Part shown: piece after piece, positions 13,781 to 45,860 of the stretch
Numbering within the stretch: the stretch's first letter is position 1
Layout: every line of letters begins with the position of its first letter
Virus record (IMG/VR): IMGVR_UViG_3300020473_000017
Strand: one strand, 5' to 3'
DNA: 64,000 nt
Origin: a virus
Program-made: the position numbers and the translations under genes
The notes under the pieces: generated by a model
Told to the model about the DNA's origin: nothing
The model's database searches: none
What the model saw: only the letters and a program-made list of their open reading frames with translations

Positions 13781-16700
13781 TTAAACAATCGTCCAGGATC
13801 CACCGTTATCTATAGTAACTGTGCTACCGTTATTTATAGTCAATGGCCCCGCGCTCATGCAGCAATCTCCATTAGCAACAGTGATGCTTTCTCCAACAGA
13901 ATTTCTATTACGCTTGAATACCCCGTGAGAATCGATCCATTGCTTGTCGCCACCTGCTCTTAGAACTGTGCTCTTCTGTCCAGAAGATAGTCCTTCAGAT
14001 GCATTAAGGTTTAATCCACTATCTCCAGTAACTTGTACTCTATATGTTGACTGAATAGAGTTGCCACCTGGTTCGTGGAAATGACATCTACCACCCTGAT
14101 CCCATGATGCAAATGTTTGGTCACTATCATTTCTAAAGAAGAAGTCATCACCAGTCTTAATATAAGTATGACTATTATTAGCAAAGTAGAATCTTTGCTG
14201 ACCACCATCATCTGATATCCAAGTGTTAACTACACCCTGTAGATAAGGTAGGTTAAGTGCACTATAACCATCAAGTAAGTCTGCATTCAGGTTAGTACAT
14301 ACAGTAGTAGAACTAACACTAAGTGGTGCAGTACCAGTAGCAACAGTAGACTTAAGTTGATTGTCAGTTTCAATAGCACCACCAACATTCAATCTTGAAC
14401 CAGCTCCAGTACCAGCTGCCCTGTTAATAAACCATCTACCAGTAGCTTGATAGATCGCAAGGTTACAAGATCCAGTAGTAGCTTGAGCATTGATAGTTGC
14501 TGCAGCACCTGGATTTGCAAATCCTTTAAGAACAAAATATGATACGTTAGCATCATCTGCACCCATGACCCATGCATTATCATTATCTTTATCATCCCAT
14601 GTAATAGAAGGAGATCCACCACTCGTACCAAGTAATATACGACCATCATTAGCAGCACCAGATTCAAAGGTTGCCCATGCAGCAAGACCATCTTGATCCT
14701 TAGTGACATGTAAAGGTGATCCAGGATTAGATTGTCCAACACCTAAACGTGCATTACGGAAGTATACACCATTGTATGATAAGTGAGTTCCATTCCAACC
14801 AAAGTCATTAGTGTCAGTACCAAAGCGGATGTAACCAACAGTACCACTGTTTCTACCCTTGATGGATAGAGAGTTAGTTGCTGCCTTACCTAGGTCAACA
14901 CCATTAGCACCAGCAAGTTGTAAAACTCCAGTACCAGTGTTATTGAATGTACCTTGGTCACCAGTTAGATCGTTAACTGTAAGGTGTCCAGAAGCGTCTC
15001 TACGAGCGATTGTATTAGCATTTGCTGCAGTAGACTGAGTGAAACCATCTAAGTAATGAGCGTCTAGCTGTGAGGAACTACCATCGTTACCTGCGTGCCA
15101 CACGGTGTTACCGTTGACGGTGATATCACCAGTATTAATTCTTAAAGTACCATTTCCGTTATTGGTATTACCACCAGAAATGTAGAACTGAACATCGTAA
15201 TCAGGAGCTTGTCCCGAAGAACGGAAGTCAACTGTTGGAGTTGTAGAAACAGATCCCTTACCAATTTGTAGTTTAGCACCTGCAGCAGCATCACGTAATC
15301 CAATAACAGTAGTAGAACCGCTAGAGATTGGGTTGGATGATGTTACAGTCCACTTAGTACCTGGGTTAGGACCAACAACATATATGTTTGCGTTAGTATT
15401 ATTACCAACAAATGCGATTGTACCTGTTACTAATGAATAAATCTCACCAGATGTATGAGTAAGTTCACTAACACCATTAGCATCAACTACGATAGAACCA
15501 ATGTTGTTTGTTGCACCTACATCAGAGTAGATAGTGTAAGTACCACTTGGGTTAATGTTACCATTAGCACCAGTCCTACAATGGAAATCTGGAATGTATA
15601 ATGTGTACTTCAGACCACTATCATTAAGATAGAAGTTCTCGAAGACCATCTTGTCTTGACCAAGAACTTCAGGTAAGAACATATCACCCATAGGTGTATT
15701 GATTCCACCCTTAGAATTACCGAAGTTATAACCTGACTGATACCATAGACCTTGTGATCCATCTAGTTTATCAGCATCTAGGCCACTCGCAGCACCATCA
15801 TTAGCACCTGACCAAATCTTAGACCAGTTACCATATACAGTGTTACCTCCACTGTTACCTCTAATCCAAAGGTTATCATTATCAGTGTAACCGATTTGAA
15901 TAGCAGCAGAACCTGTTGCTTCCCTTCTGTAGGTCATGATACCGTGTGTGGTACCACCGTCAGTTAAACCAGTTGCACTATTATTTCTTAATGCAGCAGA
16001 AATACCGTTTGCTGCCTGTGCAGGTGATGGGTTAGAAGTTAGAGATGCAGTCTCGTTGAATACTCTGTTTGCTGTGTCAGCAGTACCAGAGATAGAAATA
16101 TTATATGTTGTATTTGCAAGACGTGCGGGATCAAGTGTACCAGCATTCAAACTACCAGCGTTCTGATAGAATGCACCGTGGTTACCATCCAGTTTATCAG
16201 CATTAAGTTCTGATCCTGGTCCTTGGTCAATAGTTACCTGACCATCATTATCAATTACGAAACCACCTTCTGATTGGTTACCAACTGCTTGGTTAGCAAC
16301 ATCCTTACGGAAACGGAATACACCGTAGTTACCATAGACAGTAGCGGCAGGAGTAAGGTTATCACCCTTCCTCATGTCAATTTCTATGTTACCATATACA
16401 CGGTTAATAGTACCCTTAACAGCAGTTAAGATTGCTCCATTACCACCACCAAATTCTGCAGGTATTGTTATACTAAATCCAGCAGTATATCCTGTACCAG
16501 AGTCAGTTACAGTAGCAGATGTAATAACACCACTTGTAACTGTATAAGTTGCTCTTGCAACACCACTATCAGTAACACTTACGTTACCACCTTCTAATGG
16601 TAAGTTCTGATAAGTACCGTCTGTGTATGAAGTACCACCGTTAGTTATAGTGATGGTGTCAATATATGTACTGTCTGTGACAGATCCATCAATAACAATA

Positions 16701-19700
16701 CAATCCTGAGTAGCAGGTCTAATTGCTTGTAATGCATACTCCCAAGAAGAATCACCACGTAAGAATGTGTAAGAGTTAGATACACCTCTACTTGCTAATC
16801 TCTCTGGGTCAATAGTACCAGCAACAATGTTAGAAGCATCAATGTTAGTTGATGTTAACTGTGTCCAGTTCGCTGCATTAGAAGCAGAAGTATTAATTAC
16901 CCTTGTAAGGTCAACAATTCTCTTTCTAGCAAAGTTACCAGAAGTACTTGCTGAAGCAGCAGAAGTTACTGTATACTGGTTAGCATTAATTAGAGAAATT
17001 GTATAGAAACCATCAGCACCCTGACCACTTGTAAAGTCTAAGAAAACAAGGGATGCGTTTGATAAGTTATGTCCAGTCTCATCAACTGTAATGGTAGTAC
17101 CAGATTGAGAATAAGTACCAGTTCCTTCATTAGCACCAGCACCATCAAGGATAAAGTCACCAGCATCAAACTTGATATTGTTTGCAATGTTGATGTTAAC
17201 TCTACCTTCAATTTGAGCAGCAAGAACTGCATTATTGTTAGTAGGTGAGTTAGGTGCAGTTACAGTTGGCTGTGAGTAGTATCCAGAACCAGGGTTGGTA
17301 ATAGTAACCTTAGTTACGATACCACTTGTTACGTTAGCAGTAGCAGTTGCCTGTGTGCCAGATCCACCAGGTGCAGAAATTGTTAGTGCAAAGTCACCAG
17401 TATAATCCGCACCACCATCAGTGATAACGAAGTTATAAATTTGACCATCATTAAAGGACTGAACAGTACCACGAGCAGTAGTAGAACTACCAGTTAGGAT
17501 AGCACCATTAGTGAATGAGTAATTACTATTCGGTGTGAATGCTAAGAACTGAGATTCTAAGTCATTCTCCAAGATATAGGAGATTGCAGTACCATCAGTT
17601 GTAAACGTATGAGTACCTGTACCCTGACCAGTAAGGTCAATAGCAGTACCATTTGTTGCGTTTGATGATGTAGAAGCAAGTTTAACAGTGTTGTCATCAA
17701 CCTTGATAACAAAGTACTTGGTAGCAGTTGAAAGTCCACCAATCGCTGTTGTTCCCTCAGTATATGTTAATCCATCACCAGTATTTGCACCATGAGCTGT
17801 GATGGTAATCTCTTCAGTACCTGTATTAACTGAAGCAGGAGCAACGCTGAAGTCTACAGCAGTTGTCTCAATAGCAATGTCACCAGCATTTGCGTCTTCA
17901 ATAGCAAGTCTTTCTACCTGAGATGTAACAGAAGTAATATTGAAAGGACGTAAAGCAGGTATCTGATCAATGTTAATCTTACCTGAAGACGTTAACTGAA
18001 CCAGTGCAGATGGAACTGCGTTTGTTGAATATGGCTGGTTGAGGTATGGTCCTAGGTTATTTGAAATATAATCTTTAACTGATGCCTGAGTAGGTAGTAA
18101 ACTATCAGATGCGAATGCACCACCTAAGTTGTCATCATCAGAGAAACCTGTAATCGTGATGTCACCACCAACGATCTTAATGGATGATAGTTCAGAGATA
18201 CTAACAGTACCAACGAAACTAATAGCACCAGTTCTGTTGAAGATAGTAACGAAATTACCAACCTTGAAGTCACCAAATTCGTTAGTACCAGATGTATAAA
18301 CCTGACCGAAGGCTTGTTCTGAAGCTTCGTATGCAGTACCTAAACCAAATCCACCGTTCTGAGGTAGAGCAGCATAGGTGTTACCAGATCCAGAATATTC
18401 CCAAGTATGTGATGAGGAGTTAACAACAGATGGTCTGTGGAATTGGATTGAGCGATTGACTAAGTTACTTAAGTTACCGTTAGCATAACTGTTCCTAGTG
18501 TTAGGAGCTGCTGTATCGGTATAATCCATCGACCTGTTGGTCGTGATCTTAGCAACTACCTGAGTTCCAGGAGCACCACTGACTACTTCTGTTTCAAGAA
18601 TGATATGCTCAACAGCAGGGTCAGTTGGATTACATCCACCAATTCTAATGATATAATCTTCTGTTGGAATATTGGTTAATGTTGTACCAGATACCTGAAT
18701 GACCTGTCTGCCAGATTCAACTTGGTTGTTATCAACATCATTAGTAATACTATCAATGACACCAATGTCAAAGCTGTATGGGTCTTCTCTAAATCCAGTT
18801 GCACGTAGAGAGTACGTACCAAAGTTAGATGCAGAGTTAGTAATAGATGCATATCCACCAGACTGACAAACAACACCATCTTGACAGAAGATAGCGAACA
18901 CAGAAACGACCTGTGTATATCCATCATTAGTGACGTTGTATGCAGTACCACCAAAAGATATAATGGTAAATGCGTTTGCAACCATCGACTTACCTTGTGG
19001 GTCGAACTGTGCAATACTATTACCTTGTGCGTCTAATTTAAGACCTGGACGAGGTACGTTTGGTGTAGCAACCTTAGCACCGTCAATATCACAACCAGAA
19101 CCTCCAAGGAATGATATAACAGAAGAGTTCTGAATGAATGGTGATGCTTCGACTACTGGTAAGTCTAAGAATAGATTGAGTAGTGGGAACTTGTACTTAG
19201 CAGCATCCTGTTCAGTAATAAGAGGATCTGGTTCTGTAATAGTACCACTGTATAAAGTACCACTGGATAAAACGTTATCTAAAATACCCCAGTTGGTAGT
19301 TAGTGCAGATACAACATTAGCACACTCAGGAGCACTTGAATCTATAGTAATAGAACTATTAGAAACAGGAGCAATATTTGAGAAGAAGCCTGGTTCTAAA
19401 TCATTTCTTATTGCTTTGATGCAAAGCTCTTTAGCATATGCAAAGATAGCACGAGTATAATCTACTTCTTGAGTAACATGTGCAATAGCACCACTAGAGA
19501 TATACTTGTTAGCAGATTCAACTATTGAAGAGTTACCAGTGTAACGAAGGTCATACTGAAGTGCTCTAACAATATGAAGAATATCATCTAAACATTGTTG
19601 ATCACCAGGTGAGAATGTTCTAGTTACAGCAGATAAATCACCGTATGAACCATCTGTACCAAGTGCAGTTGTAATTATACCAAAGAATGTATCAATTGCA

Positions 19701-22700
19701 GATACTACATCAGTACATGTTGGTGTTGTGGCACTAGTATCAGTAGCATGAGCTAAACTATCAGTAGCAATTGCTTGCTCAACAATAGAGAATAAAGTAT
19801 CAACAGTTGACTTAGGAGTTGTACATCCACCAGGATCAACTGTAATTGTTAGATCCTTAGATTGACCTACACCATGCCATCCTCTAATATTTACAGTCTC
19901 ATTAGCAATAACTTGTTGAGTAATATCACTTGCAATCTCCATGACTGCACGAGCATAGAACTCCTCACCATCTACGTGAGTGGTTCCAACAAAGTATCCT
20001 GCATGATCGTATACAGCATCGTTACCACCATTAACAAGGTTGTAAGCAACTGCTCTTAGAACATCAGATACATCATCCTTACAATCCTGATTATGATTAG
20101 GGATTGAGAATCTTGCAGCAGCAATTGGATCTGTTATACGAGGATAGGTGTAGTTTCCACCACCCTGAGCACAACTATAAATTATAGAATTAGTTGCAAT
20201 CTTAACTGTAGATCTAGCATGACTAATAGCATCAGCTGCAGCACCTTGATAAGTATGAGTTGTAGTGTTAGTAGAAGGAACTGTATCTAGTACTTGTACA
20301 TCAAATGTGTTCGTAGTAACATTAGAAATAATGACCCACTTGTTAGCAATTGGATCTGTCGAACGTGGATATGCAGTTGTTCCACCGCTACCATGAGTAC
20401 AACTAAAGCTTATTGCACCAACATCAAACTTAACTTTATCACCAACAGCAAATCCATGACCGTTGATAGTAACAGTCATAATACCTGTAGTAGGATCATA
20501 CGCACCACCAGATGCAGTATGTGTTGTAGGAGCTAGTAATTCATTAGATCCGATAGTTAATACTAGATCACCTGTAGCTGGGGTATATGTTGAAGATGAT
20601 GGAATATAATTGTTTATAGTAGAAGAAGTTGATCTCTTAACACCATTAGAAGTTGCACTTACAAATGAGTGTGCATAGTTACCACCAGTGATGACTGAAT
20701 TACCTAGTGCAGACTGATAAGCATGAGTTGTAGTGTTAGATGAGATACCAACATCAACAGTAATTGTAGTTCCTGTTGTTGCTACGATAGGAACTGAAGT
20801 ATTGTGTGACTTATCACGCTTCTGTGTGATTCCACCTGTTGTAGCAGATACAAATGCATGAGCATCTGTATTTGTTGATGGGATTGTAGATAAGACTTGA
20901 ATTTCAAATGTAGTTGAAGTTACATTAAAGATCTTCTGCCATTTTCCAGAAATAGGATCACCTGATCTTGGATATGACTTCTGTGCAGCAGGACCAGAAG
21001 CACCGCCAAATGCACAACTGAATGTAATAGAATTATCAGCAAGTTTAACCCAATCACCGTTTCTCATTCCATGAGAAGCAGTTGTCTCGACATGTACAAT
21101 ACCTGATGATGGGAAGTAGTGAGTACCACCCTTGGTTATAGCACCAGCAGATGTTCCACCCTGCCAAGTATGAATATAATCACCACCACTAGTAATAGCG
21201 TTAGTTGCAGTGAATCCAGGCTTCCATCTATGAGTAGAAGTATCTGAAGCAGTACCAACGTCTAGAGTAATTGTTGTTGCTGTTACAGCAGTAATGTTGA
21301 CCGCTGTATCGTATGCAGGGTCATCTGAGGTTGCTCCACCTTGTCCACTAGCACGAGGATATAAATGATCAGATCCATAGCTATCAGTATTACACTGGAA
21401 GCTAAGAGACTGATTAGCAATCTTAACACTGGTGTTTGCCTTAAGGCTATGAGCACCAATATCTAAAACCATAATACCTGTAGTAGGATCATATGTTGCA
21501 TCAGTTACTGTATGTTGTACTAAAGGAGATTGTCCAACATTTAAAGTAATTGTATCTGAACCTACTGCTTTAACAGGAATAGACTTTCCGTAATATGGGT
21601 CACTTGCTCTTGGATATGTCTTAGTTGAAGTGTTGCCATCCATTGTGCAATTGAAGGACAATGAATCAGGCTTAACGAATACGCTATCGCTAGTTGTTAA
21701 TCCATGACCATTACCAACTGTAAGAACCATATCACCACTGACTGCATTATAAGAAGCACCAGTGACATTGAAATTTGTACCACCAATTGCTGTATGTGAA
21801 TCAACTAATGCTCTTGGATATGCGTGCTCAGTTGATTGACTATCCTCATCACACTTAAATGTGATAGCACCAGTTGTAAGTTTAATATTTTCTTTAACGT
21901 GCTGAAGTCCATTACTAACAGCAGATACAAATGTATGAACATCATCAACTGTTAGTGCTACACCACCAGTACAATCAAACTTAAATGTATTTGTAGTAAC
22001 ACCCCAGATATTGATCCACTTACCAGCAATGGGTTGACCTGCTTTTGGATAAGACTCATTACCACCGCCACCATAAGGGCAACTCATGGTTATAGAACCA
22101 ACAGCAAGATTAATCTTATCTCCTTCTTGGAAACCGTGATCATTAATGGTCACAGTCATAATACCACTATGATTCTCAAGAGTTGCATCCGTTACTGTAT
22201 GAGAGGTAGGAGCCGCAAGGCTATGATTACCTACGGTAATCTCCATAAGACCCGTTGTAGGGGTATATACAGCGTTTGTGGGGGTGAACGTAACAGGTGG
22301 TGTAGTACCTACATTAATATCAAAAGTATCAGTAGTAATGTTAGAAACACTCTTCCAAACATTAAGTGCTGGATCAGTTGATCTAGGATATGTGTGCTTG
22401 GAGAAGTTGTCATCCATTGAGCAAGTAAAGGTCAATGAATCTTGAGCGACCTGTACTTTCTCACCAACTGTGAAACCATGACCAGGAATTGTAAGGGTTA
22501 GTACACCTGTAATTGGTTCGTATGCTGCATTAGTTACTGAATGCTGTGTGAAACCAACATCATTGTATACAACTGCTCTTGTTACAGAATTTGCTGCAGC
22601 ACTTACGAATGTATGTGGAGTAACGTCAGTTTTTGCCTTACCAACATTAACTTTAATATTATTAGCGTCTACCTTAATTACACCAAGATACTTGTTATAG

Positions 22701-25700
22701 AATGGATCTGTTGTACGAGGATACGTCTTATTAGAACCATCATTATCCATCTCACAAGTAAATGTGAGTGAATTAGGTGCAATTAAAATTCTGTCTCCAT
22801 CAACAAATGGGTGACTTGCAATGGTAAGAACCATTTCACCTGTTTGTGGATTATAATCAGCACCAGTTGGTTGGAATTGATATGTGCTTAAACCTTGGAA
22901 TGTATGTGTAGTAGTATTAGTTGGAGTAGTACCATTAAGTGCATTAATAGTAATATCATTTCCATTAACAGCAGTTACAGGAGTTTCAGTAAGACTTGAA
23001 ACAAAACGCTCTACTGCTTCTTCTGAAATGAACTTGTTATTAGTATTAATTAAATTAGCAGCATCCTGAGTTAGGTTAGGTACAGTACCATATGTTGCTC
23101 TATCAAGAGTAATAGTTTCATACTGTTGAGGATGAGTAGTATGTGGATGTCTTAGAATTGGTAGGTTACGAATTACCTTAGCAGCATATCCCTTAGCATT
23201 ATTGAATGCAGTTACATACTTACTCTGATTACTTGTAGTTACATCTTTAAGGAAGTAATTAGCAGCATCATATACTCTGTCATTACCACCCCACTTAAGG
23301 TTGTGATAAAGTGACTTCTTAAGGAAGTCGGAAATATCATCAGTACATGCTGTATTACCAGTAGGAACACTATATCCAGTATCAGCAACCATCTTCTCAA
23401 CAGATAGTTCTGCAATCATTTCAGCATTAGCAGCAAGTAAATCTGCAGCATCTGCTTGCTTATTATTCTCTGGGAAACTATTTGGAGTTCTATATGGTTT
23501 TCTTAAATCAGTGAAAGTACCATCAGTTCCTGTATATGTTGTACCTTCTGCTTCATTTTTACCAGAACTATTAACGCCAAGATCAAGAGTGAAAGTTCTA
23601 TGATCTACAATATCCTTAATAGGCCATGTGCTGTTAAGACTAAATCCATTCGCGAATGCAGCGACACCTTTAATTTCTACACCAGCAGAAGTACCAACAT
23701 TAACTGTAACTGTTCCAGCTGCATCTACTGCTGTAATTGCTAAAGTAGCACCGTATGCAGGGTCAGTTGATCTTGGATAAGTATGGGATGTAGCATGGTT
23801 GTCTCTAGAACATGTAAAGCTTAAAGAACCATTAGCAATGACTAATGTGTCAGAAGTAGTAAAGGTATGAGCACCTATTGATAATACTAGGTCTCCTGAT
23901 ACAGGGTCGTATGTTGCACCTGTTACATTCTTTTGAACACTACCAGCAGTTATTGTAATAGCATTACTTGCTGTACCACCATCATAAATGTGAGCATGAT
24001 TCTTATATCCTCTATAAAGGTTATGTCCTTGATTAACTTTAATAGTGGCAACATCATCACTTACAGCCCATGAAGTAATTGGATGGTCAAACTCCATCCC
24101 CAATGCACTAAATGTAGTAGGTCCAATTACAAGAGTACTATTTCTAGTAGAAGACTTCTCATAATGAGACTTAACATATCCGTATGCTTCTTGTGCAATA
24201 AATTCTTGGTTAGCTCTGATAGATTCAGCACCATCCCTAAAGCGAGCAGTCTGAGAGATCTTGACAAATCCATAAGGAGAGTTCCTTAGAGATGCAAGAA
24301 CATAGTTATTAGTAGAAATAACTGACTGGTTACCAGTTGGATTAAGTTGTGCATCAAATACACTAATAGCAGATCTTACAACAAATTGTAAGGCATAACC
24401 ATCAGCACGTTCAATACGATGCGTAATGTACTTACGTCCATTAAGATCTTCAACGTTATCTAAGACACTAACTGTAGATCCACTAGCAGTTGCAGTATTA
24501 GTTGTTGACTGAATATTTGCTGTCCTAAGTACAAAGGTAACAGTTAAGTTGGAACTATTGTATCTACCATAACCCATACCCAATTCAGTGTTACCAGGTA
24601 AGGATGGAGTACCAGATCCAAGATCAAACTGGTCAATAAGATATGTTTTACTTAATGCTTCAGATCCAGCTCCATCAAAGTTAAACTTAAGACCACATTC
24701 ACCAAGTGACTGCCAGTTAGAGAATAATGCAGTAGTTAAAGTATTATCTACGTTAGCAATAGTAACTGTGACTTCGCCACTTGATAAAGACCAAGATGGG
24801 TTAGTACCTGCACCCCAGTTAATAGCAGAACTTTGGAAACCATATAAGAAAACTTCCTGACCAACTTCATAGTCATGGTAAGAAGTACCTGCTAAAGTGA
24901 AAGTTGGACCATTATATGTCTGTTGTGTAGCTAATGTTGTGTCCAGAGTTGCGATTGATAATAATCTTGTCGCATCTTCAAATCTTTGATATCCTAAACC
25001 TGTACCTGTAAGATCTAAAGTTGTAGGAGCATCATTACCATTAGCATCCTTATTAAGAGCGTTAGCAGCAGTAGCAGCAAATCTTACCCAATCATTATTT
25101 TCTTTGTAGATATAATAAGTTGTACCATCTAGAAGACCACCAATCGCACCCATCTTACTAGCACGATATACAACACCATCTCCAGTTGCATACTGGTGAG
25201 TGAAGATTCTCATATTATTCGATTCTGGCATAATACTACCAGAAGTGAATAGATGGAGACTAGTATCTGGAGATACCGCAGTTATATCCTTTCTACCTGT
25301 AGTTGAAGTAAGTGTAGTAGCATTTAACCAAGTATCAAATAGTTCAATAGTATCAGCATCAACAAACCTTACATAATATACTGTACCATCAATAAGACCA
25401 CCAAGAGCATTAGTGTTCTCATCTTTCTGATAATAAACCTGATCACCACTCTTAAAGCTATGCCCAGTAATTGTTATTCTATCAGTGGTTAGATTAACCT
25501 TAGTAGAATCAGCTGCAAATGCAGTTGTTTCTCTTTCAGAATTAACTGTATGCTGATAAATCTGGTTAGAGATAGTCTCTAATTCAGGTCTTAATGATTC
25601 AGCATCAACAACGTCAAAGCGATCTGATACACTTGGGTTAGTGATATCAGTGATAATATTATTTGCTACAGCATCATAGAATATTTTCTCAGCGTCCTGG

Positions 25701-27046
25701 AATACGTCGTTAACACCTGACGTAATTAAAACCTTAACAGTACCACTTGCATTTGGTGTTCCAGCTGGTCCTGTGAAATTAACTTCTTGGATAGTACCTA
25801 ATGTACCTGAAGATCCACCTTGTACAAAGTAACCAACCTGTAGAGTTATGTCACTACCTGTATGGTTGTTAAATGTAATAAGGAAGATGTTATCACCACG
25901 GAACTTATCACCAGGAATAGCTGGGATTTGTGCAAGTTCTGGTTCGTAGTATAATCTCTGCTTATCGTCAAATACGAATGCATACTTCCAAGTATGAATT
26001 ACTGTACTTTGTGGGTCAGAAGAGTTCTGTAGTGCATCTCTGAATACACAACCAGCAACATATGTTTCGTTAGATGCTTTGATCATGTGACGATCAGCAT
26101 TTAACGGTCTTACAATTACACGACGTAGGTTGTCACCAATAAGTGAACAGTTCCTAGGAAGTGAAATTGGGTTATCTTCTAGGTACTCACCACCAGAAAC
26201 GATCAGTGATACGTACTCATCACTAGGATCTGGCTGTGCTTTCTGTAAACCGTAAGCAATTTGTGCTGCTTTCTTAATAGTTTTTACAGGTCTTGCAGCA
26301 GAACGACCATCATTTAGATCACTACCAATAGTTTGAGAGACATATACACGTCCACCAGTGTCATTTGTAGCAACTTTATAAACAAAATCTGTAGTTGCGA
26401 CACGTCTTGACTGATCAGTCAGAGGTGGAGTATCAGCAGTTGGATAAAATGTTGTACCAAAAGTATTACTTGTTACGTCTGTATCTTCGTAGTTGATTAA
26501 ATTAGGAGCACGAAGAGCCAGTGCAGGGTTGATAATGGTCTGGATGTCTAAGTTAACAACCTGAGCAGTATCAGAAATGATAGAACGAGTGGTTCTGATT
26601 TGACCCTCAACGTCAAGTTCGTACTGAGGATCGGTAGTATTAACACCAACGCGAATATTATTTTGAGGATTTAAGTTTAATGTTAATGCATCTTTCTCAT
26701 TAGCATCAACACCAACAGATAATTCTACAGATTCATCCCCTTGAATACTTAAAGAACGTACTCTTTTATATGATACTGTATTACCAGCAGTAATTACACC
26801 TAAGTTTGAACTCTGGAATGAAAGATTATCATCATCTACCTTTGATACTGTATAAGTTCCATCTGTTTCACCGCCAGATGTGAAATCTAAGTATAACTTT
26901 TCATCTCCAATGAAACCGTGAGCAACAGAAAGAATATTAACAACACCAGATACCGTCCTACTATAAGTGGAGTTTACCCAATTACCTGTAGGAGTAGCAC
27001 CAGATGCCTGTATTCTTTGCTGGTCGGCATTAATCTTAAGACTCAT
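13781..27046 (-). CDS. Giant tail-fibre or structural protein, 4421 aa
   Basis: VGVNTTDPQYELDVEG and ATTDFV fibre motifs, a split beta-helix, nested helical and beta repeats, four L.A..LDG motifs and a C-terminal AGPLTI..G.TVTI..G..WTIV module. Confidence 0.85.
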   Translation of the reverse strand: MSLKINADQQRIQASGATPTGNWVNSTYSRTVSGVVNILSVAHGFIGDEKLYLDFTSGGETDGTYTVSKVDDDNLSFQSSNLGVITAGNTVSYKRVRSLSIQGDESVELSVGVDANEKDALTLNLNPQNNIRVGVNTTDPQYELDVEGQIRTTRSIISDTAQVVNLDIQTIINPALALRAPNLINYEDTDVTSNTFGTTFYPTADTPPLTDQSRRVATTDFVYKVATNDTGGRVYVSQTIGSDLNDGRSAARPVKTIKKAAQIAYGLQKAQPDPSDEYVSLIVSGGEYLEDNPISLPRNCSLIGDNLRRVIVRPLNADRHMIKASNETYVAGCVFRDALQNSSDPQSTVIHTWKYAFVFDDKQRLYYEPELAQIPAIPGDKFRGDNIFLITFNNHTGSDITLQVGYFVQGGSSGTLGTIQEVNFTGPAGTPNASGTVKVLITSGVNDVFQDAEKIFYDAVANNIITDITNPSVSDRFDVVDAESLRPELETISNQIYQHTVNSERETTAFAADSTKVNLTTDRITITGHSFKSGDQVYYQKDENTNALGGLIDGTVYYVRFVDADTIELFDTWLNATTLTSTTGRKDITAVSPDTSLHLFTSGSIMPESNNMRIFTHQYATGDGVVYRASKMGAIGGLLDGTTYYIYKENNDWVRFAATAANALNKDANGNDAPTTLDLTGTGLGYQRFEDATRLLSIATLDTTLATQQTYNGPTFTLAGTSYHDYEVGQEVFLYGFQSSAINWGAGTNPSWSLSSGEVTVTIANVDNTLTTALFSNWQSLGECGLKFNFDGAGSEALSKTYLIDQFDLGSGTPSLPGNTELGMGYGRYNSSNLTVTFVLRTANIQSTTNTATASGSTVSVLDNVEDLNGRKYITHRIERADGYALQFVVRSAISVFDAQLNPTGNQSVISTNNYVLASLRNSPYGFVKISQTARFRDGAESIRANQEFIAQEAYGYVKSHYEKSSTRNSTLVIGPTTFSALGMEFDHPITSWAVSDDVATIKVNQGHNLYRGYKNHAHIYDGGTASNAITITAGSVQKNVTGATYDPVSGDLVLSIGAHTFTTSDTLVIANGSLSFTCSRDNHATSHTYPRSTDPAYGATLAITAVDAAGTVTVNVGTSAGVEIKGVAAFANGFSLNSTWPIKDIVDHRTFTLDLGVNSSGKNEAEGTTYTGTDGTFTDLRKPYRTPNSFPENNKQADAADLLAANAEMIAELSVEKMVADTGYSVPTGNTACTDDISDFLKKSLYHNLKWGGNDRVYDAANYFLKDVTTSNQSKYVTAFNNAKGYAAKVIRNLPILRHPHTTHPQQYETITLDRATYGTVPNLTQDAANLINTNNKFISEEAVERFVSSLTETPVTAVNGNDITINALNGTTPTNTTTHTFQGLSTYQFQPTGADYNPQTGEMVLTIASHPFVDGDRILIAPNSLTFTCEMDNDGSNKTYPRTTDPFYNKYLGVIKVDANNIKVNVGKAKTDVTPHTFVSAAANSVTRAVVYNDVGFTQHSVTNAAYEPITGVLTLTIPGHGFTVGEKVQVAQDSLTFTCSMDDNFSKHTYPRSTDPALNVWKSVSNITTDTFDINVGTTPPVTFTPTNAVYTPTTGLMEITVGNHSLAAPTSHTVTDATLENHSGIMTVTINDHGFQEGDKINLAVGSITMSCPYGGGGNESYPKAGQPIAGKWINIWGVTTNTFKFDCTGGVALTVDDVHTFVSAVSNGLQHVKENIKLTTGAITFKCDEDSQSTEHAYPRALVDSHTAIGGTNFNVTGASYNAVSGDMVLTVGNGHGLTTSDSVFVKPDSLSFNCTMDGNTSTKTYPRASDPYYGKSIPVKAVGSDTITLNVGQSPLVQHTVTDATYDPTTGIMVLDIGAHSLKANTSVKIANQSLSFQCNTDSYGSDHLYPRASGQGGATSDDPAYDTAVNITAVTATTITLDVGTASDTSTHRWKPGFTATNAITSGGDYIHTWQGGTSAGAITKGGTHYFPSSGIVHVETTASHGMRNGDWVKLADNSITFSCAFGGASGPAAQKSYPRSGDPISGKWQKIFNVTSTTFEIQVLSTIPSTNTDAHAFVSATTGGITQKRDKSHNTSVPIVATTGTTITVDVGISSNTTTHAYQSALGNSVITGGNYAHSFVSATSNGVKRSTSSTINNYIPSSSTYTPATGDLVLTIGSNELLAPTTHTASGGAYDPTTGIMTVTINGHGFAVGDKVKFDVGAISFSCTHGSGGTTAYPRSTDPIANKWVIISNVTTNTFDVQVLDTVPSTNTTTHTYQGAAADAISHARSTVKIATNSIIYSCAQGGGNYTYPRITDPIAAARFSIPNHNQDCKDDVSDVLRAVAYNLVNGGNDAVYDHAGYFVGTTHVDGEEFYARAVMEIASDITQQVIANETVNIRGWHGVGQSKDLTITVDPGGCTTPKSTVDTLFSIVEQAIATDSLAHATDTSATTPTCTDVVSAIDTFFGIITTALGTDGSYGDLSAVTRTFSPGDQQCLDDILHIVRALQYDLRYTGNSSIVESANKYISSGAIAHVTQEVDYTRAIFAYAKELCIKAIRNDLEPGFFSNIAPVSNSSITIDSSAPECANVVSALTTNWGILDNVLSSGTLYSGTITEPDPLITEQDAAKYKFPLLNLFLDLPVVEASPFIQNSSVISFLGGSGCDIDGAKVATPNVPRPGLKLDAQGNSIAQFDPQGKSMVANAFTIISFGGTAYNVTNDGYTQVVSVFAIFCQDGVVCQSGGYASITNSASNFGTYSLRATGFREDPYSFDIGVIDSITNDVDNNQVESGRQVIQVSGTTLTNIPTEDYIIRIGGCNPTDPAVEHIILETEVVSGAPGTQVVAKITTNRSMDYTDTAAPNTRNSYANGNLSNLVNRSIQFHRPSVVNSSSHTWEYSGSGNTYAALPQNGGFGLGTAYEASEQAFGQVYTSGTNEFGDFKVGNFVTIFNRTGAISFVGTVSISELSSIKIVGGDITITGFSDDDNLGGAFASDSLLPTQASVKDYISNNLGPYLNQPYSTNAVPSALVQLTSSGKINIDQIPALRPFNITSVTSQVERLAIEDANAGDIAIETTAVDFSVAPASVNTGTEEITITAHGANTGDGLTYTEGTTAIGGLSTATKYFVIKVDDNTVKLASTSSNATNGTAIDLTGQGTGTHTFTTDGTAISYILENDLESQFLAFTPNSNYSFTNGAILTGSSTTARGTVQSFNDGQIYNFVITDGGADYTGDFALTISAPGGSGTQATATANVTSGIVTKVTITNPGSGYYSQPTVTAPNSPTNNNAVLAAQIEGRVNINIANNIKFDAGDFILDGAGANEGTGTYSQSGTTITVDETGHNLSNASLVFLDFTSGQGADGFYTISLINANQYTVTSAASASTSGNFARKRIVDLTRVINTSASNAANWTQLTSTNIDASNIVAGTIDPERLASRGVSNSYTFLRGDSSWEYALQAIRPATQDCIVIDGSVTDSTYIDTITITNGGTSYTDGTYQNLPLEGGNVSVTDSGVARATYTVTSGVITSATVTDSGTGYTAGFSITIPAEFGGGNGAILTAVKGTINRVYGNIEIDMRKGDNLTPAATVYGNYGVFRFRKDVANQAVGNQSEGGFVIDNDGQVTIDQGPGSELNADKLDGNHGAFYQNAGSLNAGTLDPARLANTTYNISISGTADTANRVFNETASLTSNPSPAQAANGISAALRNNSATGLTDGGTTHGIMTYRREATGSAAIQIGYTDNDNLWIRGNSGGNTVYGNWSKIWSGANDGAASGLDADKLDGSQGLWYQSGYNFGNSKGGINTPMGDMFLPEVLGQDKMVFENFYLNDSGLKYTLYIPDFHCRTGANGNINPSGTYTIYSDVGATNNIGSIVVDANGVSELTHTSGEIYSLVTGTIAFVGNNTNANIYVVGPNPGTKWTVTSSNPISSGSTTVIGLRDAAAGAKLQIGKGSVSTTPTVDFRSSGQAPDYDVQFYISGGNTNNGNGTLRINTGDITVNGNTVWHAGNDGSSSQLDAHYLDGFTQSTAANANTIARRDASGHLTVNDLTGDQGTFNNTGTGVLQLAGANGVDLGKAATNSLSIKGRNSGTVGYIRFGTDTNDFGWNGTHLSYNGVYFRNARLGVGQSNPGSPLHVTKDQDGLAAWATFESGAANDGRILLGTSGGSPSITWDDKDNDNAWVMGADDANVSYFVLKGFANPGAAATINAQATTGSCNLAIYQATGRWFINRAAGTGAGSRLNVGGAIETDNQLKSTVATGTAPLSVSSTTVCTNLNADLLDGYSALNLPYLQGVVNTWISDDGGQQRFYFANNSHTYIKTGDDFFFRNDSDQTFASWDQGGRCHFHEPGGNSIQSTYRVQVTGDSGLNLNASEGLSSGQKSTVLRAGGDKQWIDSHGVFKRNRNSVGESITVANGDCCMSAGPLTINNGSTVTIDNGGSWTIV
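20120..22990 (-). repeat. Block of 9 nested ~95-aa YPR/HxF beta repeats in the 4421-aa fibre; one further solitary copy at about 23690-24000
   Basis: Unit pattern A.Y.P.TG...T...H....D.....S..F.C....YPR..DP......T.TF...V....H.F.SA..N. Confidence 0.85.
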
Positions 27047-27617: not shown

Positions 27618-27625
27618 TATTTATA
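27618..27625 (-). promoter_or_regulatory. T4-type late promoter TATAAATA
   Basis: Exact consensus overlapping the stop of the 2428-aa gene, 23 nt before the ATG at 27595. Confidence 0.8.
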
Positions 27626-30600
27626 CCTTGACCTTAGTAGTTGTATATCTACCAGTAAAGGATGTGGATGTTGTTGCAGCAGAAGATTTATTCAAACTGA
27701 TATTTACAGCATTTGCCGCAACTGAAACGGTAGCATCCATCAAATCATTATCTGAAGTAATGGAATTAGTGACAGTAGCATGTGCAACAGTACCACCAGC
27801 AGCACATATAGCAGTTACTTCAAACATATGAACTTTTCCATCATCACTTTCAACAGTGATTAATGTCTTAGCTCCCTTATATGCTGTCTTATCAAACGCA
27901 GTGATAGATGCGTTAGAAGTGAATGTGGTCATTTGGCCACCTTCTACACGACAATCATCAAGTTCCATAAAGTCAGCAGTTGAATCAAAGACTGTTTGAT
28001 AACTTGCTGCACCACCAGCACCCCAGTTCTTATTAATCTTCCATAGTGCTTCAGAACCATTAGCATCTAAATCAATAAAGAATTTATTATCTAATCTAGT
28101 AATAAAGTTTTGAAGTAGTACGTCGTTTCTTGCATATGGAGCAGATCCTCCAGAAATTGTATCAACCTTAATTGTGACATCTTGGGAAGGTGATAATCCA
28201 CCAAGAAGTGTACCAGCAATAGTAATTACTTCCCCTACCTGGTAAGTAGTACCACCAGCATTAATTGCAACTGCAGTTACTGTTCCATTTCCATCTGTAG
28301 TAACATCTACGGTTAATCCAGTACCTTCAACCTGAGCAGTTGTTGCCAGTCCAGTGAATGATTGAGATGGAGTATATGATGTTGCAACCTGTGTTAATGT
28401 AGCAGCATCTAATGTAGCAACAACACCCTGAGAAGGAACATTACGTAATCTTAAACCACCAGTAATTTCAACGTCTTGTTGGCTTCTTATTGAGAATAAT
28501 GTGCTATTGCTAGATTTAATATTTAATGGATTTAAAGAAGAACTTGTACCATCAATGTTAAAGCTGTTTGGAATAGTATGAGTGAATGAAGTATTTGGAT
28601 AAACAACACTTGTCATGTTACCCTTAAAGGTCATTGTATCTTTGCTTATTGCAAGGTTATTTTGACCTTGAGCAAAGAACTCAAATGTATCTTCATCAGA
28701 ACCAGGTGCTGATTCAGTTAATATGTAAGTATCTTGGTCAACGTCTCTAACACCACCAAGAGAAACAAAGTCAGTTCCGTTGTAACCTTCAAATTGTAAC
28801 TGTGTAGTATTATATCTAATAGCACCAGGTCTACGATCTAAAGCATTAGGACGTTCGTTTGTAGTACCTGAAGGAACTATTAACGAACCTGTAGTATTAC
28901 ATAGAACATCGAAACCTGCAGATGGTTTAAGTTCAACACCTAGACCGTCAACATCAGTAATATTAACAGTTCTACCAGTACCACCACCAACAGCAGCAAT
29001 TGTTAAAGTATCACCTACAGCATAATTTTGACCTTTACCAACAACTGTAACCGCTGAGAAGTCTCCACCAGCAACAGTAACAGTTACGGTACATCCAGTA
29101 CCAACACCATTAGATGTTGTTGCGGTTGCAGTGTAAGTTCCGTCTGTATATCCAGATCCAGATCCAGTAACACTGGTTGCTAGTATCTGACCGAAGGATC
29201 TAGTTGCAGTTGTACTATTGTTTATTATTGCATTATCTAATATACGAAGCAATCCAGCATCAAGATTACCACTAACAGTTACATCACCAGTTAAAGTTTC
29301 AATCTTAAACTTCTCTGAGGAACCATCAGTAATACTAAAGTCTTTGTCAGTACCACCCTTAAATATGAAATCTCCACCACCCTTGGTTTCAAAGTTTAAT
29401 GGAATATCAACATTACTACCATCAACTTTAATAGTATTAGTATTATCAATTGATAAGAAGTTTGTAGCAGGTCCAATTGTAACTGCATTTGCAGTTGGAT
29501 CTACCTTGAAGAATGGAGCAACATTTCCAAGAGTGGAATCTATTTGAAGTTTAGCACCATCATATCCATCAGCACCAAGTCTAAATGTTTCTACACCTGC
29601 GATTGAAACTCCAATAACATCAGCAGCTTGTCTGAATAAACCAGTAGTTAGAGAATTATCAAAGTTTAATGTTGGAGATGCTGCAGCACCATCAGCAAGA
29701 CTTGCAGTTGTATTGACAAGAGTTGTGACACCTGCAGTTGTAATACCACCATTGAATGTTGCTAATCCAGTAAACGTGGATGTAGATTGTGCAGTTATTA
29801 CACCAGAGAAGTTTGCAGTTGTTCCAGAAACACCTGTGAATGCTGCACTACCACTTCCAGAAATACTCCAAGATCCAGAAGATACCTGACCATCTGGATT
29901 TAAAACTAATTGAGTTGCACCTGTAGGTCCAAGAGTTAGAACTCCCAATTGGGACATCTCTAACTGTTTAGTACTGTTTATAGTAGCAAGAGTTGCAGTA
30001 AGACCATTTCCCTGTGCGACATTAGCACCACCAACAGGACCAAGTATTAATGTATCCGCAGCTTCATATGCAGTACCTTCAGCAGCTACAGCTAGTGCAG
30101 TACAGAATCCAACGTTAGTAACGGTATATTGGAAACCAGCTCCACCACCACCTCCAACTGTACTATCATCTACAGAAAGAACATCTCCAATTGCATATCC
30201 AGCACCATCTAATGATATGTCAGTAACACTAGTAATACCTGTAGTATTAGTTTGAAGAGTATATTGGAAACCAGCTCCACCTTGACCACCAAGATCTACG
30301 TCATCTGCTAATAATACATCACCAATCTGGTAATTAGTACCTTGAGAAGTAATAGTTACAGTAGTAACAATACCACTAGCAACAACCAATGATGCAGTCA
30401 TCTGATCACCAGCATCACCTAAAGCACCAGAAGCGAATGTAATTACTGCATTCTCGGACATTCCAGTTCCATGGACTGTACATGAATATGTCGCAGTTGC
30501 AGTAGTTCCAGATACAGAAGCAAGAACAACTTCAAAATAAGATCCAGCATCTCCTGGAGTTCCGTATTGTCTAGTAGTTAAGTCTGGAACAGCAATTATT

Positions 30601-45852: not shown

Positions 45853-45860
45853 TATTTATA
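45853..45860 (-). promoter_or_regulatory. T4-type late promoter TATAAATA
   Basis: Exact consensus overlapping the gp7 stop, 21 nt before the gp8 ATG. Confidence 0.8.

What the first reader, a model, noticed from the sequence alone, without database searches (positions are those of the whole stretch)
18795..26350. About ten levels of domain-in-domain insertion in the 4421-aa fibre
The beta-helix begins near 26350 (YVSQTIGSD...GDNLRR...YAFVFD) and resumes only near 19145 (SPFIQN...SMVANAFT), about 2270 aa later. The equivalent junction in the 2428-aa protein is about 10 aa (GFELSASTSSNKSPYIER). Inside the gap, three helical units open in order (DGAESIRAN ~24240, DAADLLAAN ~23450, DAANLINTN ~23065) and close in reverse order (DCKDD..CTTPKS, then CTDVVSA ~19718, then QCLDD..CANVVSA ~19597-19320). 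The third unit holds 9 beta repeats nested 6 deep. Three unrelated folds follow the same last-in-first-out grammar, which suggests a general mechanism for growing giant virion proteins.
Basis: partly seen in the sequence, partly recalled or inferred. Interest (0 to 1): 0.88.

Follow-up and report, generated by a model that had tools for sequence, protein, structure and literature searches.

The report
Deeply nested domains in cyanophage fibre
A 4421-residue tail-fibre protein of a Prochlorococcus virus is built like a Russian doll, with whole protein domains inserted into loops of other domains at least five levels deep, which matches the deepest nesting known in any protein and shows how such giant virus proteins grow.

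Summary
The window comes from a T4-like Prochlorococcus myovirus close to P-HM1, P-HM2 and MED4-213.

- **Split beta-helix.** In the 4421-aa fibre gene (13781-27046, minus strand) one right-handed beta-helix domain is split by about 2260 residues. In 57 of 113 homologue domains the two halves are contiguous, and others carry inserts of 100 to 3156 residues at the same loop. An insert-free homologue folds as one beta-helix. The window's two halves are predicted to stack as consecutive rungs.
- **Nested helical units.** Inside the insert, three ~160-aa helical units are nested last-in-first-out. Their pieces complement each other exactly, and unit 3 is contiguous in P-HM2 and MED4-213. I find these units to be phycobiliprotein-like, which this scan already reported on other cyanophage DNA.
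- **Nested beta repeats.** Unit 3 holds nine 'YPR' beta repeats. Two of them are split by whole inserted repeats, and close relatives lack exactly those modules.
- **Depth.** Firm depth is five insertion levels (six layers). It reaches eight or nine layers only if short 'THxF' hairpins are closing elements, which I could not test structurally. 'About ten' and 'six deep' are upper bounds.

Recursive insertion is a known kind: six levels occur in cyanobacterial RNA polymerase SI3. This is a new variant of it in a virion protein.

The parts
13781..27046 (-). Gene for the 4421-aa fibre protein (P0001). Its orthologues are annotated 'tail fiber protein' in P-HM1, P-HM2 and MED4-213.
   Evidence: PHROG 5342 'tail fiber protein' matches along its length; an identical protein lies on a 143-kb ENA contig and an 82%-identical one has the same architecture
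25949..26374 (-). Beta-helix domain, N-terminal half (aa 225-366)
   Evidence: jackhmmer E=9e-58 against homologues; BLASTP E=1e-8 to the 2428-aa neighbour; DUF1565 (beta-helix start) hit in insert-free homologues
24257..25948 (-). First part of the insert: serial domains of unassigned fold (aa 367-930)
   Evidence: lies between the two beta-helix halves, which are contiguous in 57 homologue domains; no Pfam family
24143..24256 (-). Helical (phycobiliprotein-like) unit 1, opening helix (aa 931-968; profile positions 2-36)
   Evidence: orthologous to the unit-1 opening of P-HM2 (score 128 against 44)
23471..24142 (-). Beta region inside unit 1 (aa 969-1192): one THxF hairpin (aa 1015-1033) and one complete YPR repeat R0 (aa 1038-1121)
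   Evidence: R0 and its hairpin are absent in P0194, P0212 and P0213
23132..23470 (-). Helical unit 2, opening helix plus core, contiguous (aa 1193-1305; profile positions 3-118). It lacks only its last helix.
   Evidence: marginal Pfam PF00502 hit at aa 1189-1244 (E=0.0049)
22982..23083 (-). Helical unit 3, opening helix (aa 1322-1355; profile positions 3-35)
   Evidence: in P-HM2 and MED4-213 this helix is joined to the rest of unit 3 by a loop of about 13 aa
20093..22990 (-). Array of nine YPR beta repeats and nine THxF hairpins inside unit 3 (aa 1353-2318)
   Evidence: AF2 predicts beta strands throughout, pLDDT mostly 60-85
22211..22288 (-). Split repeat R3, piece a (aa 1587-1612; HMM 2-27)
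   Evidence: i-E 1.7e-5; contiguous with piece b in P0194, P0212 and P0213
21896..22201 (-). Repeat R4 plus hairpin (aa 1616-1717), inserted in the a|b loop of R3
   Evidence: HMM 2-78, i-E 2.5e-17; a clean indel of about 105 aa, absent in 3 of 15 relatives
21809..21898 (-). Split repeat R3, piece b-c with its YPR motif (aa 1717-1746; HMM 27-56)
   Evidence: i-E 9.9e-7
21128..21775 (-). Repeats R5 and R6 plus two hairpins (aa 1758-1973), inserted with R7 between pieces c and d of R3
   Evidence: present only in the window and P0154, absent in 13 of 15 relatives; flanked by the 8-nt direct repeat GGTGGTAC
20816..21127 (-). Repeat R7 plus hairpin (aa 1974-2077)
20738..20815 (-). Split repeat R3, piece d (aa 2078-2103; HMM 58-83)
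   Evidence: i-E 0.0092, weakest piece; conserved in all 15 relatives; the same arrangement occurs in P-HM2
20099..20599 (-). Split repeat R8 (aa 2150-2171, HMM 5-26; aa 2278-2316, HMM 28-68) holding R9 plus hairpin (aa 2176-2278). Its missing last strands may be aa 1353-1376 at the start of the array.
   Evidence: the 'clasp' assignment of aa 1353-1376 rests on resemblance by eye only (no HMM hit)
19733..20092 (-). Helical unit 3, closing part (aa 2319-2438; DCKDD...CTTPKS; profile positions 31-157)
   Evidence: orthologous to the C-part of the contiguous unit 3 of P-HM2 (score 266 against 113)
19616..19732 (-). Helical unit 2, closing helix (aa 2439-2477; CTDVVSA; profile positions 118-156)
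   Evidence: the only piece that completes unit 2
19229..19615 (-). Helical unit 1, closing part (aa 2478-2606; QCLDD...CANVVSA; profile positions 35-158)
   Evidence: orthologous to the unit-1 closing part of P-HM2 (score 455 against 118)
18740..19165 (-). Beta-helix domain, C-terminal half (aa 2628-2769)
   Evidence: jackhmmer E=8e-68; predicted to stack on the N-half

Best explanation
The stretch encodes a real recursive domain-insertion architecture.

Layout:
- One right-handed beta-helix domain of tailspike type is interrupted, at a surface loop between two rungs, by about 2260 residues.
- The insert starts with about 560 residues of serial domains.
- Three phycobiliprotein-like helical domains then sit one inside the other. 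Unit 2 lies in the loop after the first helix of unit 1. Unit 3 lies before the last helix of unit 2.
- The same first-helix loop of unit 3 holds an array of nine ~85-aa 'YPR' beta modules. Two of these are in turn split by whole modules of the same family.
- Each inserted module returns the chain close to where it left the host, so every host can still complete its fold. The inserted material hangs as a branched side-tree off the beta-helix, while the N-terminal part and the 1650-aa C-terminal shaft stay collinear.

Inferred, not shown:
- The modules are gained and lost as whole units by recombination between the short conserved motifs that they share.
- This lets the phage change the number and kind of exposed, probably host-binding, modules without touching the load-bearing core.

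Shown: the piece complementarity, the insert-free homologues, the module-sized indels, the beta-helix fold of the uninterrupted form and the predicted stacking of the two halves.
For: **Beta-helix**
- The N-half (aa 225-366) and C-half (aa 2628-2769) match homologues at E=9e-58 and 8e-68.
- In 57 of 113 homologue domains the halves are under 40 aa apart. The rest carry 100 to 3156 aa at the same point.
- The insert-free domain P0051:814-1136 folds as one unit (AF2 pLDDT 81.4, pTM 0.75).
- That model matches right-handed beta-helices along residues 15-291: cyanophage Pam1 tailspike 7eea_C (Z 16.7, rmsd 4.5, 209 aligned), and K1 capsule lyase, PL6 lyases and pectin methylesterases at Z 14-16.
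- The insertion point is the loop between strands 135-139 and 167-175 of that model.
- The window's two halves as separate chains score ipSAE 0.75 against a best control of 0.19. That mark was reached by 58 of 80 solved complexes and 2 of 110 mismatched pairs, and these counts hold only roughly because my own alignments were used. The runs agree in at least 71% of contacts and partner pLDDT is at least 67.
- The predicted interface is aa 320-361 with aa 2632-2659, which is what consecutive rungs would give. This pass may partly reflect the model's memory of beta-helices.

**Helical units**
- The spliced pieces align end to end with the contiguous unit 3 of P-HM2 and MED4-213.
- The profile coordinates of the pieces are 2-36, 3-118, 3-35, then 31-157, 118-156, 35-158. 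They complement each other only as a nested set.
- Orthology to P-HM2 fixes which opening belongs to which closing.
- Among 274 homologues there are 318 contiguous units, about 140 split after helix 1 and about 142 split before the last helix.

**Beta repeats**
- The pieces of R3 cover HMM positions 2-27, 27-56 and 58-83 in the right order.
- R4 is a clean 105-aa indel, absent in three relatives in which R3 a-b is contiguous. R5+R6 is a roughly 220-aa indel, absent in 13 of 15 relatives.
- The same grammar recurs in the window's 4802-aa protein.
Against: - No coordinates of a model that contains split helical units or split beta repeats could be inspected.
- The AF2 model of aa 1318-2440 has mean pLDDT 64.5 and under 40 for the helical part, so the reunion of unit 3 is not shown structurally.
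- Piece d of R3 is a weak hit (i-E 0.0092).
- The last strands of R8 are assigned by eye only.
- The opening helix of unit 3 is only weakly discriminated from that of unit 1 (score 59 against 45).
- The fibre is probably a trimer, so pieces might be completed between chains rather than within one chain.
- The function of the side-tree and the recombination mechanism are inference. The DNA repeats are short (20-49 nt) and the modules are old and diverged.
Confidence: 0.85

Rival explanations
1. The nesting is as deep, at eight to nine layers. Each YPR module would consist of a body plus a ~19-aa THxF hairpin, and further modules would be inserted between body and hairpin. The hairpins would then pile up as closing brackets, giving R2 > R3 > R5 > R6, with R8 clasping the whole array.
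For: - There is exactly one hairpin per repeat in P0001 (10/10), P0154 (10/10), P0159 (8/8), P0194 (6/6) and P-HM1/2 (3/3). Hairpins outnumber repeats in only 1 of 140 proteins.
- Indels remove repeats together with their hairpins.
- Hairpins occur as doubles (aa 1935-1973, 2104-2140), as a triple in P-HM2, and as a run of five at aa 4038-4146 of the 4802-aa protein after several bodies that have no hairpin.
- Read as brackets, the order is balanced.
Against: - A balanced order is expected by chance in about 1 of 10 random arrangements of nine pairs, and plain alternation is balanced too.
- A hairpin can also precede its repeat (aa 1015-1033; the extra repeat of MED4-213), so its partner is ambiguous.
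- Hairpins could instead stack on each other as a separate beta spine.
- No structural test was possible.
Confidence: 0.4
2. The pieces are completed between chains. In a trimeric fibre, the opening piece of one chain would pack with the closing piece of a neighbouring chain (domain swapping), so the sequence grammar would not mean intrachain insertion.
For: Phage fibres and tailspikes are usually trimers with intertwined segments (established knowledge). Nothing here tests the oligomeric state.
Against: - Contiguous versions of all three module types are common in the same family, which is the signature of insertion.
- Very short linkers at several junctions (for example R3a to R4, and R9 to R8b) favour a return to the same module.
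Confidence: 0.08
3. The partial matches are decayed remnants of tandem duplications (dead half-domains), not parts of functioning split domains.
For: Repeat-rich fibre genes do accumulate truncated copies. Some pieces are short, weak matches.
Against: - The pieces complement each other exactly and in order for three different folds.
- They are conserved in relatives at 55-82% identity.
- The halves of the beta-helix and of unit 3 are contiguous in homologues.
- The beta-helix halves are predicted to stack.
Confidence: 0.04

Closest known systems
Recursive insertion of sandwich-barrel hybrid motifs in the SI3 region of cyanobacterial RNA polymerase beta' (Prochlorococcus rpoC2). It is the deepest case, at six levels, in a survey of 2.7 million classified domains (PMC13114784; see also PMC11515920).
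   Same: - It follows the same A1-B1-C-B2-A2 grammar applied recursively.
- Modules of one family are inserted into each other.
- Single hosts can carry several inserts.
- The depth is similar (six levels, against at least five here).
   Different: - Here three unrelated folds host each other.
- The insert is about four times larger (2260 aa against about 545 aa).
- The protein is a virion fibre.
- The module content differs between close relatives, so gain and loss are recent and ongoing.
Right-handed beta-helix tailspikes and receptor-binding domains, e.g. cyanophage Pam1 tailspike (7EEA), Sf6 and CBA120 tailspikes, and polysaccharide lyases and pectin methylesterases
   Same: The uninterrupted form of the host domain has this fold (Z 14-16.7 over about 200 residues), with a DUF1565-type start.
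   Different: - No known member carries an insert of thousands of residues between two rungs.
- Catalytic residues were not examined.
- Sequence identity is 9-18%.
Phycobiliprotein beta subunits (phycoerythrin, phycocyanin; Pfam PF00502)
   Same: - A profile of 60 contiguous helical units finds only phycobiliproteins among its best 60 PDB hits (best E=8.4e-7).
- Unit positions 4-63 align with residues 34-100 of the phycobiliproteins.
- The invariant Cys and Asp of the CxDD motif fall on Cys82 and Asp85 of the bilin site.
- A second conserved Cys aligns, weakly, with the beta-153/155 site.
- 22 of the 60 units hit PF00502 singly.
   Different: - The units lack the N-terminal X-Y helices.
- They have Asp where phycobiliproteins have Arg84.
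- They are embedded in a virion protein and serve as hosts for insertions.
- Bilin binding is untested.
Carbohydrate-binding modules inserted in loops of distal tail proteins ('evolved Dit', BppA) of lactococcal and other siphophages (from memory, not checked here)
   Same: Phage adsorption proteins are enlarged by insertion of whole binding modules into loops of a conserved core.
   Different: Those cases have one level of insertion and one or two modules, not recursion.

Membership tests
Recursive (nested) domain insertion, A1-B-A2 applied repeatedly | The host domain is present as sequence pieces that together cover its whole profile, in order, on either side of the insert | tested here: met
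   - Beta-helix: positions 1-142 and 2-143 of the half-profiles.
- Helical units: 2-36/35-158, 3-118/118-156 and 3-35/31-157.
- R3: 2-27/27-56/58-83.
Recursive (nested) domain insertion, A1-B-A2 applied repeatedly | Homologues exist in which the host is uninterrupted at the same point | tested here: met
   - Beta-helix: 57 of 113 domains.
- Unit 3: P-HM2, P-HM1 and MED4-213.
- R3 a|b: P0194, P0212 and P0213.
- No orthologue uninterrupted at the unit 1, unit 2 or R3 c|d junctions was found among close relatives. For those junctions only paralogous contiguous units exist.
Recursive (nested) domain insertion, A1-B-A2 applied repeatedly | The pieces of each host reunite in space to form one domain | tested here: inconclusive
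   - Beta-helix halves: predicted to stack (ipSAE 0.75 against best control 0.19; the mark was reached by 58 of 80 solved complexes and 2 of 110 mismatched pairs).
- Helical units and beta repeats: the AF2 model of aa 1318-2440 is of low confidence in the helices and no coordinates could be read.
Right-handed parallel beta-helix (pectin-lyase fold) | Fold match along the whole domain | tested here: met
   The insert-free homologue model gives Z 14-16.7 with 190-216 residues aligned over model residues 15-291. The window's halves are clear homologues of that domain.
Right-handed parallel beta-helix (pectin-lyase fold) | Catalytic or sugar-binding residues of a lyase, hydrolase or esterase | not tested
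   No active-site comparison was made.
Phycobiliprotein (Pfam PF00502) | Sequence match above the curated threshold | tested here: inconclusive
   - The window's own unit 2 scores 17.3 bits, below the cut-off of 22.2 (E=0.0049).
- The family profile matches phycobiliprotein chains at E=8.4e-7.
- 22 of 60 contiguous units hit PF00502 singly at E up to 0.1 (best 7.6e-5).
Phycobiliprotein (Pfam PF00502) | Bilin-site residues: Cys82, Arg84, Asp85 | tested here: inconclusive
   Cys and the second Asp are invariant in 60 units and align with Cys82 and Asp85. The position of Arg84 is Asp in all three units of the window (CTDD, CKDD, CLDD).
Phycobiliprotein (Pfam PF00502) | N-terminal X-Y helices that make the alpha/beta heterodimer | tested here: not met
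   The alignment starts at about residue 33 of the phycobiliproteins, and the units have nothing upstream of that helix.
Phycobiliprotein (Pfam PF00502) | Covalently bound bilin | not testable with these tools
   This needs spectroscopy or mass spectrometry of virions or recombinant domains.

The most novel reading that the evidence does not exclude
The fibre would hold the deepest domain nesting known in any protein, at eight to nine layers, with the THxF hairpins as closing elements. Nesting would be an active diversification mechanism: whole modules would be inserted and excised at motif-level microhomologies (for example the 8-nt GGTGGTAC repeat that flanks R5+R6). This would let cyanomyoviruses retune a branched, possibly bilin-carrying, host-recognition tree on an unchanged beta-helix and shaft.
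Probability: 0.3. Interest if true: 0.85.

Novelty: new variant of a known kind. Interest (0 to 1): 0.62.

Why it matters
- **Annotation.** It explains why giant cyanophage structural proteins are so hard to annotate. Their domains are discontinuous, so Pfam finds nothing in 4421 residues.
- **A parsing rule.** It gives a concrete rule of module pieces and permissive loops that can be applied to hundreds of related proteins of 2000 to 7000 residues.
- **Limits of recursive insertion.** Recursive insertion reaches, and may exceed, the depth so far seen only in cyanobacterial RNA polymerase. Here it involves three different folds and is still changing between close relatives.
- **Folding.** The first pieces of the beta-helix and of unit 1 must wait for more than 1500-2200 residues before their partners are made.
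- **Phage ecology.** It points to a side-tree of exchangeable modules as a likely seat of host-range variation.
- **Pigment question.** Three phycobiliprotein-like domains sit in that tree, which adds this genus (whose relative P-HM2 carries cpeT and pebS) to the open question of pigmented virions.

Tried and rejected
- **Pfam on the whole protein and on eight pieces:** nothing but a marginal PF00502 hit.
- **BLASTP of the C-half against the 2428-aa neighbour:** not significant, and the half-profiles do not find a C-half there. I replaced that comparator with insert-free homologues from the exhaustive search.
- **PDB sequence search with an insert-free beta-helix domain:** no hit.
- **AF2 model of aa 1318-2440 with 15 relatives:** mean pLDDT 64.5 and helices under 40.
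- **Foldseek with that model:** only generic multi-domain beta proteins at TM of 0.11 or less, uninformative.
- **ESM Atlas look-up of a contiguous helical unit:** no usable hit.
- **DNA repeats in the stretch:** only 20-49 nt at 60-96% identity at conserved motifs. The modules are therefore not recent duplicates.
- **Whole-genome search:** no genome is held for the window, so I could not check whether this phage itself has cpeT or pebS. P-HM2 has both.
- **Literature:** searches found no description of nested domains or phycobiliprotein-like domains in cyanophage fibres. The PhiCpeT paper (PMC5336146) is not held.
- **Rejected readings:** mis-assembly, because an identical and an 82%-identical protein lie on independent contigs and three isolates share the plan. 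Dead half-domains, because the pieces complement each other and are conserved.
Full report
**Origin**

The window is part of a T4-like cyanomyovirus of Prochlorococcus. The stretch matches the 'tail fiber protein' genes of P-HM2, P-HM1 and MED4-213 (genus Eurybiavirus) at 75-81% DNA identity over only 18-40% of its length. Gene order around it is the same as in those phages. The gene runs from 13781 to 27046 on the minus strand and encodes 4421 aa (P0001). The isolates' orthologues have 3676-3763 aa. An identical protein lies on a 143-kb ENA contig, and an 82%-identical one of 4404 aa has the same architecture. The gene is therefore not an assembly artefact.

**The observation**

**The beta-helix is one domain split by about 2260 residues**

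- An exhaustive profile-free search with aa 2315-2800 gave 788 relatives.
- I mapped the N-half (aa 225-366) and the C-half (aa 2628-2769) on these relatives and on 120 further ones. In 57 of 113 domains the halves are under 40 aa apart. The others carry inserts of about 110, 200, 330, 430, 620, 800-1100, 1500-2400 and up to 3156 aa at the same point. The window's insert (2264 aa) is large but not the largest.
- An insert-free domain (P0051:814-1136, with 22 relatives) folds as one unit (pLDDT 81.4).
- That model matches right-handed beta-helices over residues 15-291. The best match is the cyanophage Pam1 tailspike at Z 16.7. Capsule and alginate lyases and pectin methylesterases follow at Z 14-16 (Foldseek gave the same class at low TM).
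- Insert-free homologues also hit DUF1565, the start of such helices.
- The insertion point is the well-predicted loop between strands 135-139 and 167-175 of the model.
- Given as two chains, the window's own halves are predicted to stack, with aa 320-361 against aa 2632-2659, as consecutive rungs would. The ipSAE is 0.75 against a best control of 0.19. That mark was reached by 58 of 80 solved complexes and 2 of 110 mismatched pairs, roughly, since my own alignments were used. The runs agree in at least 71% of contacts and partner pLDDT is at least 67. This pass may owe something to the model's knowledge of beta-helices. It supports the reunion of the halves but does not prove it.

**Three helical units are nested last-in-first-out**

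- Spliced in silico, unit 1 (aa 930-968 + 2478-2612), unit 2 (aa 1192-1305 + 2436-2477) and unit 3 (aa 1318-1354 + 2312-2435) align end to end with the contiguous unit 3 of P-HM2 and MED4-213. In those phages the first helix is joined to the CxDD helix by about 13 residues.
- A profile of the unit hits P0001 as pieces 2-36, 3-118, 3-35, then 31-157, 118-156, 35-158. Unit 2 can only be completed by the 118-156 piece.
- Orthology with P-HM2 assigns aa 931-968 and aa 2478-2606 to unit 1 (scores 128 and 455, against 44 and 118 for the wrong partner). It assigns aa 2319-2438 to unit 3 (266 against 113). The short opening helix of unit 3 is less well discriminated (59 against 45).
- There are two insertion sites: after the first helix (units 1 and 3) and before the last helix (unit 2).
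- Both sites are used widely. Among 274 relatives I count 318 contiguous units, about 140 split at the first site and about 142 split at the second.

**What the helical unit is**

- A profile of 60 contiguous units (A5) finds only phycobiliproteins among its best 60 PDB chains. The top hits are phycoerythrin beta at E=8.4e-7 and phycocyanin beta at E=2.5e-6.
- Unit positions 4-63 align with residues 34-100 of the phycobiliproteins.
- The invariant Cys and Asp of CxDD fall on the bilin-site Cys82 and Asp85.
- A second, nearly invariant Cys aligns weakly with the beta-153/155 site.
- 22 of the 60 units hit PF00502 singly. The window's unit 2 does so below threshold.
- The units lack the X-Y helices and have Asp in place of Arg84.
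- P-HM2 encodes a CpeT-type lyase and PebS. The role of these phage genes is called unresolved in PMC3037559, and T-type lyases serve the Cys-153 position (PMC10452541).
- Whether the fibre binds bilin is untested.
- This scan had already reported phycobiliprotein-like domains in fibres of other cyanophages. My result was obtained before I saw those notes and agrees with them.

**The beta repeats**

- An 83-position HMM built from five uninterrupted copies maps the following in P0001:

| Kind | Position in P0001 (aa) | HMM positions |
|---|---|---|
| Full copies | 1038-1121, 1390-1472, 1501-1583, 1616-1691, 1758-1841, 1844-1934, 1974-2051, 2176-2252 | whole |
| Split copy R3 | 1587-1612 / 1717-1746 / 2078-2103 | 2-27 / 27-56 / 58-83 |
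| Split copy R8 | 2150-2171 / 2278-2316 | 5-26 / 28-68 |

- R4 therefore lies in the a|b loop of R3. R5, R6 and R7 lie between c and d of R3. R9 lies in the a|b loop of R8.
- Relatives confirm the first two as module-sized events. In P0194, P0212 and P0213, R3 a-b is contiguous and the 105 residues of R4 with its hairpin are missing. R5+R6 with two hairpins (about 220 aa) exist only in the window and P0154, and 13 relatives lack them.
- In MED4-213 an extra repeat sits in yet another loop, between FTC and YPR.
- The same split-and-insert pattern occurs three times in the window's 4802-aa protein.
- The last strands of R8 may be aa 1353-1376 at the very start of the array. That would clasp the array's two ends together. 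This rests on resemblance by eye only.

**Depth**

- The firm count is: beta-helix > unit 1 > unit 2 > unit 3 > R3 (or R8) > R4-R7 (or R9). That is five insertion levels and six layers.
- In favour of this reading:
  - There is exactly one hairpin per repeat in the window and in five relatives, and hairpins almost never outnumber repeats.
  - Hairpins are lost together with repeats.
  - They pile up in doubles, a triple and a run of five exactly where unclosed repeats precede them.
  - Read as brackets they give a balanced word and R2 > R3 > R5 > R6, hence eight layers, or nine with the clasp.
- Against it:
  - A hairpin can also precede its repeat.
  - A balanced order is not improbable by chance.
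  - The only model of this part has mean pLDDT 64.5, and its coordinates could not be read.
- I give this reading 0.4.

**How it works**

Shown:
- Three folds tolerate whole-module insertions at a few fixed loops.
- Module content changes between relatives that are 55-82% identical.
- The host core is conserved.

Inferred:
- The inserted modules have neighbouring termini, so each host can close.
- The 2260 residues form a branched side-tree on the beta-helix.
- Gain and loss go through recombination at the short motifs that the modules share. The DNA repeats are 20-49 nt, and R5+R6 is flanked by the 8-nt repeat GGTGGTAC.
- The tree carries host-binding, and perhaps pigment-binding, modules.
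- Folding must run from the inside out, since the first pieces wait for up to about 2200 residues.

**Comparison with what is known**

- Recursive insertion is established. A 2026 survey of 2.7 million domains found insertions in 20% of multidomain proteins. Its deepest case is a six-level nest of hybrid motifs in the SI3 region of Prochlorococcus RNA polymerase beta' (PMC13114784).
- The fibre is the same in grammar and comparable in depth.
- It differs in using three unrelated folds, in its size, in being a virion protein and in its visible turnover of modules.
- I found no paper that describes this architecture in phage fibres.

**Verdict**

- I class it as a new variant of a known kind.
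- It is of clear interest to protein-architecture and phage-adsorption specialists, and gains further interest from the phycobiliprotein-like identity of the helical hosts.

Noticed in passing
window 19229-24256 (aa 931-2606 of P0001): The three helical units are phycobiliprotein-like. They keep the bilin-site Cys and Asp, and a second conserved Cys sits at the position served by T-type lyases. The relative P-HM2 encodes CpeT and PebS. Virions may carry bilin, which is untested. The scan has reported this on other cyanophage DNA.
   Followed up: partly
window 45856-60264 (4802-aa protein, aa 2627-4324): A second giant protein has about 13 YPR repeats with the same split-and-insert pattern in three places. 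It also has a run of five THxF hairpins (aa 4038-4146) and then one contiguous phycobiliprotein-like unit (aa 4155-4324).
   Followed up: partly
window 21125-21135 and 21776-21790 (codons 1754-1757 and 1972-1975): The R5+R6 module pair, present only in this phage and one relative, is flanked by the 8-nt direct repeat GGTGGTAC. This may be microhomology at the insertion break points, or chance.
   Followed up: no
P0062 (1945 aa), aa 296-600: In this homologue a whole helical unit is inserted inside the N-half of the beta-helix (N 6-68, unit, N 35-139). A YPR repeat sits at the usual junction. The beta-helix therefore has a second permissive loop.
   Followed up: no
window 20093-23935 (YPR repeats): Each repeat keeps a His (G-H-x-F), a Cys (F-x-C), Y-P-R and D-P. 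Another first-reader note suggests a metal site. No Pfam family covers the repeat. PHROG 1276 (325 aa, unknown function) holds a single copy.
   Followed up: no
window 27621-34907 (2428-aa 'gp7'): The neighbour has a Laminin_G_3 (concanavalin-like) domain at aa 450-593 (E=8e-22). Only its N-half resembles the fibre's beta-helix.
   Followed up: no
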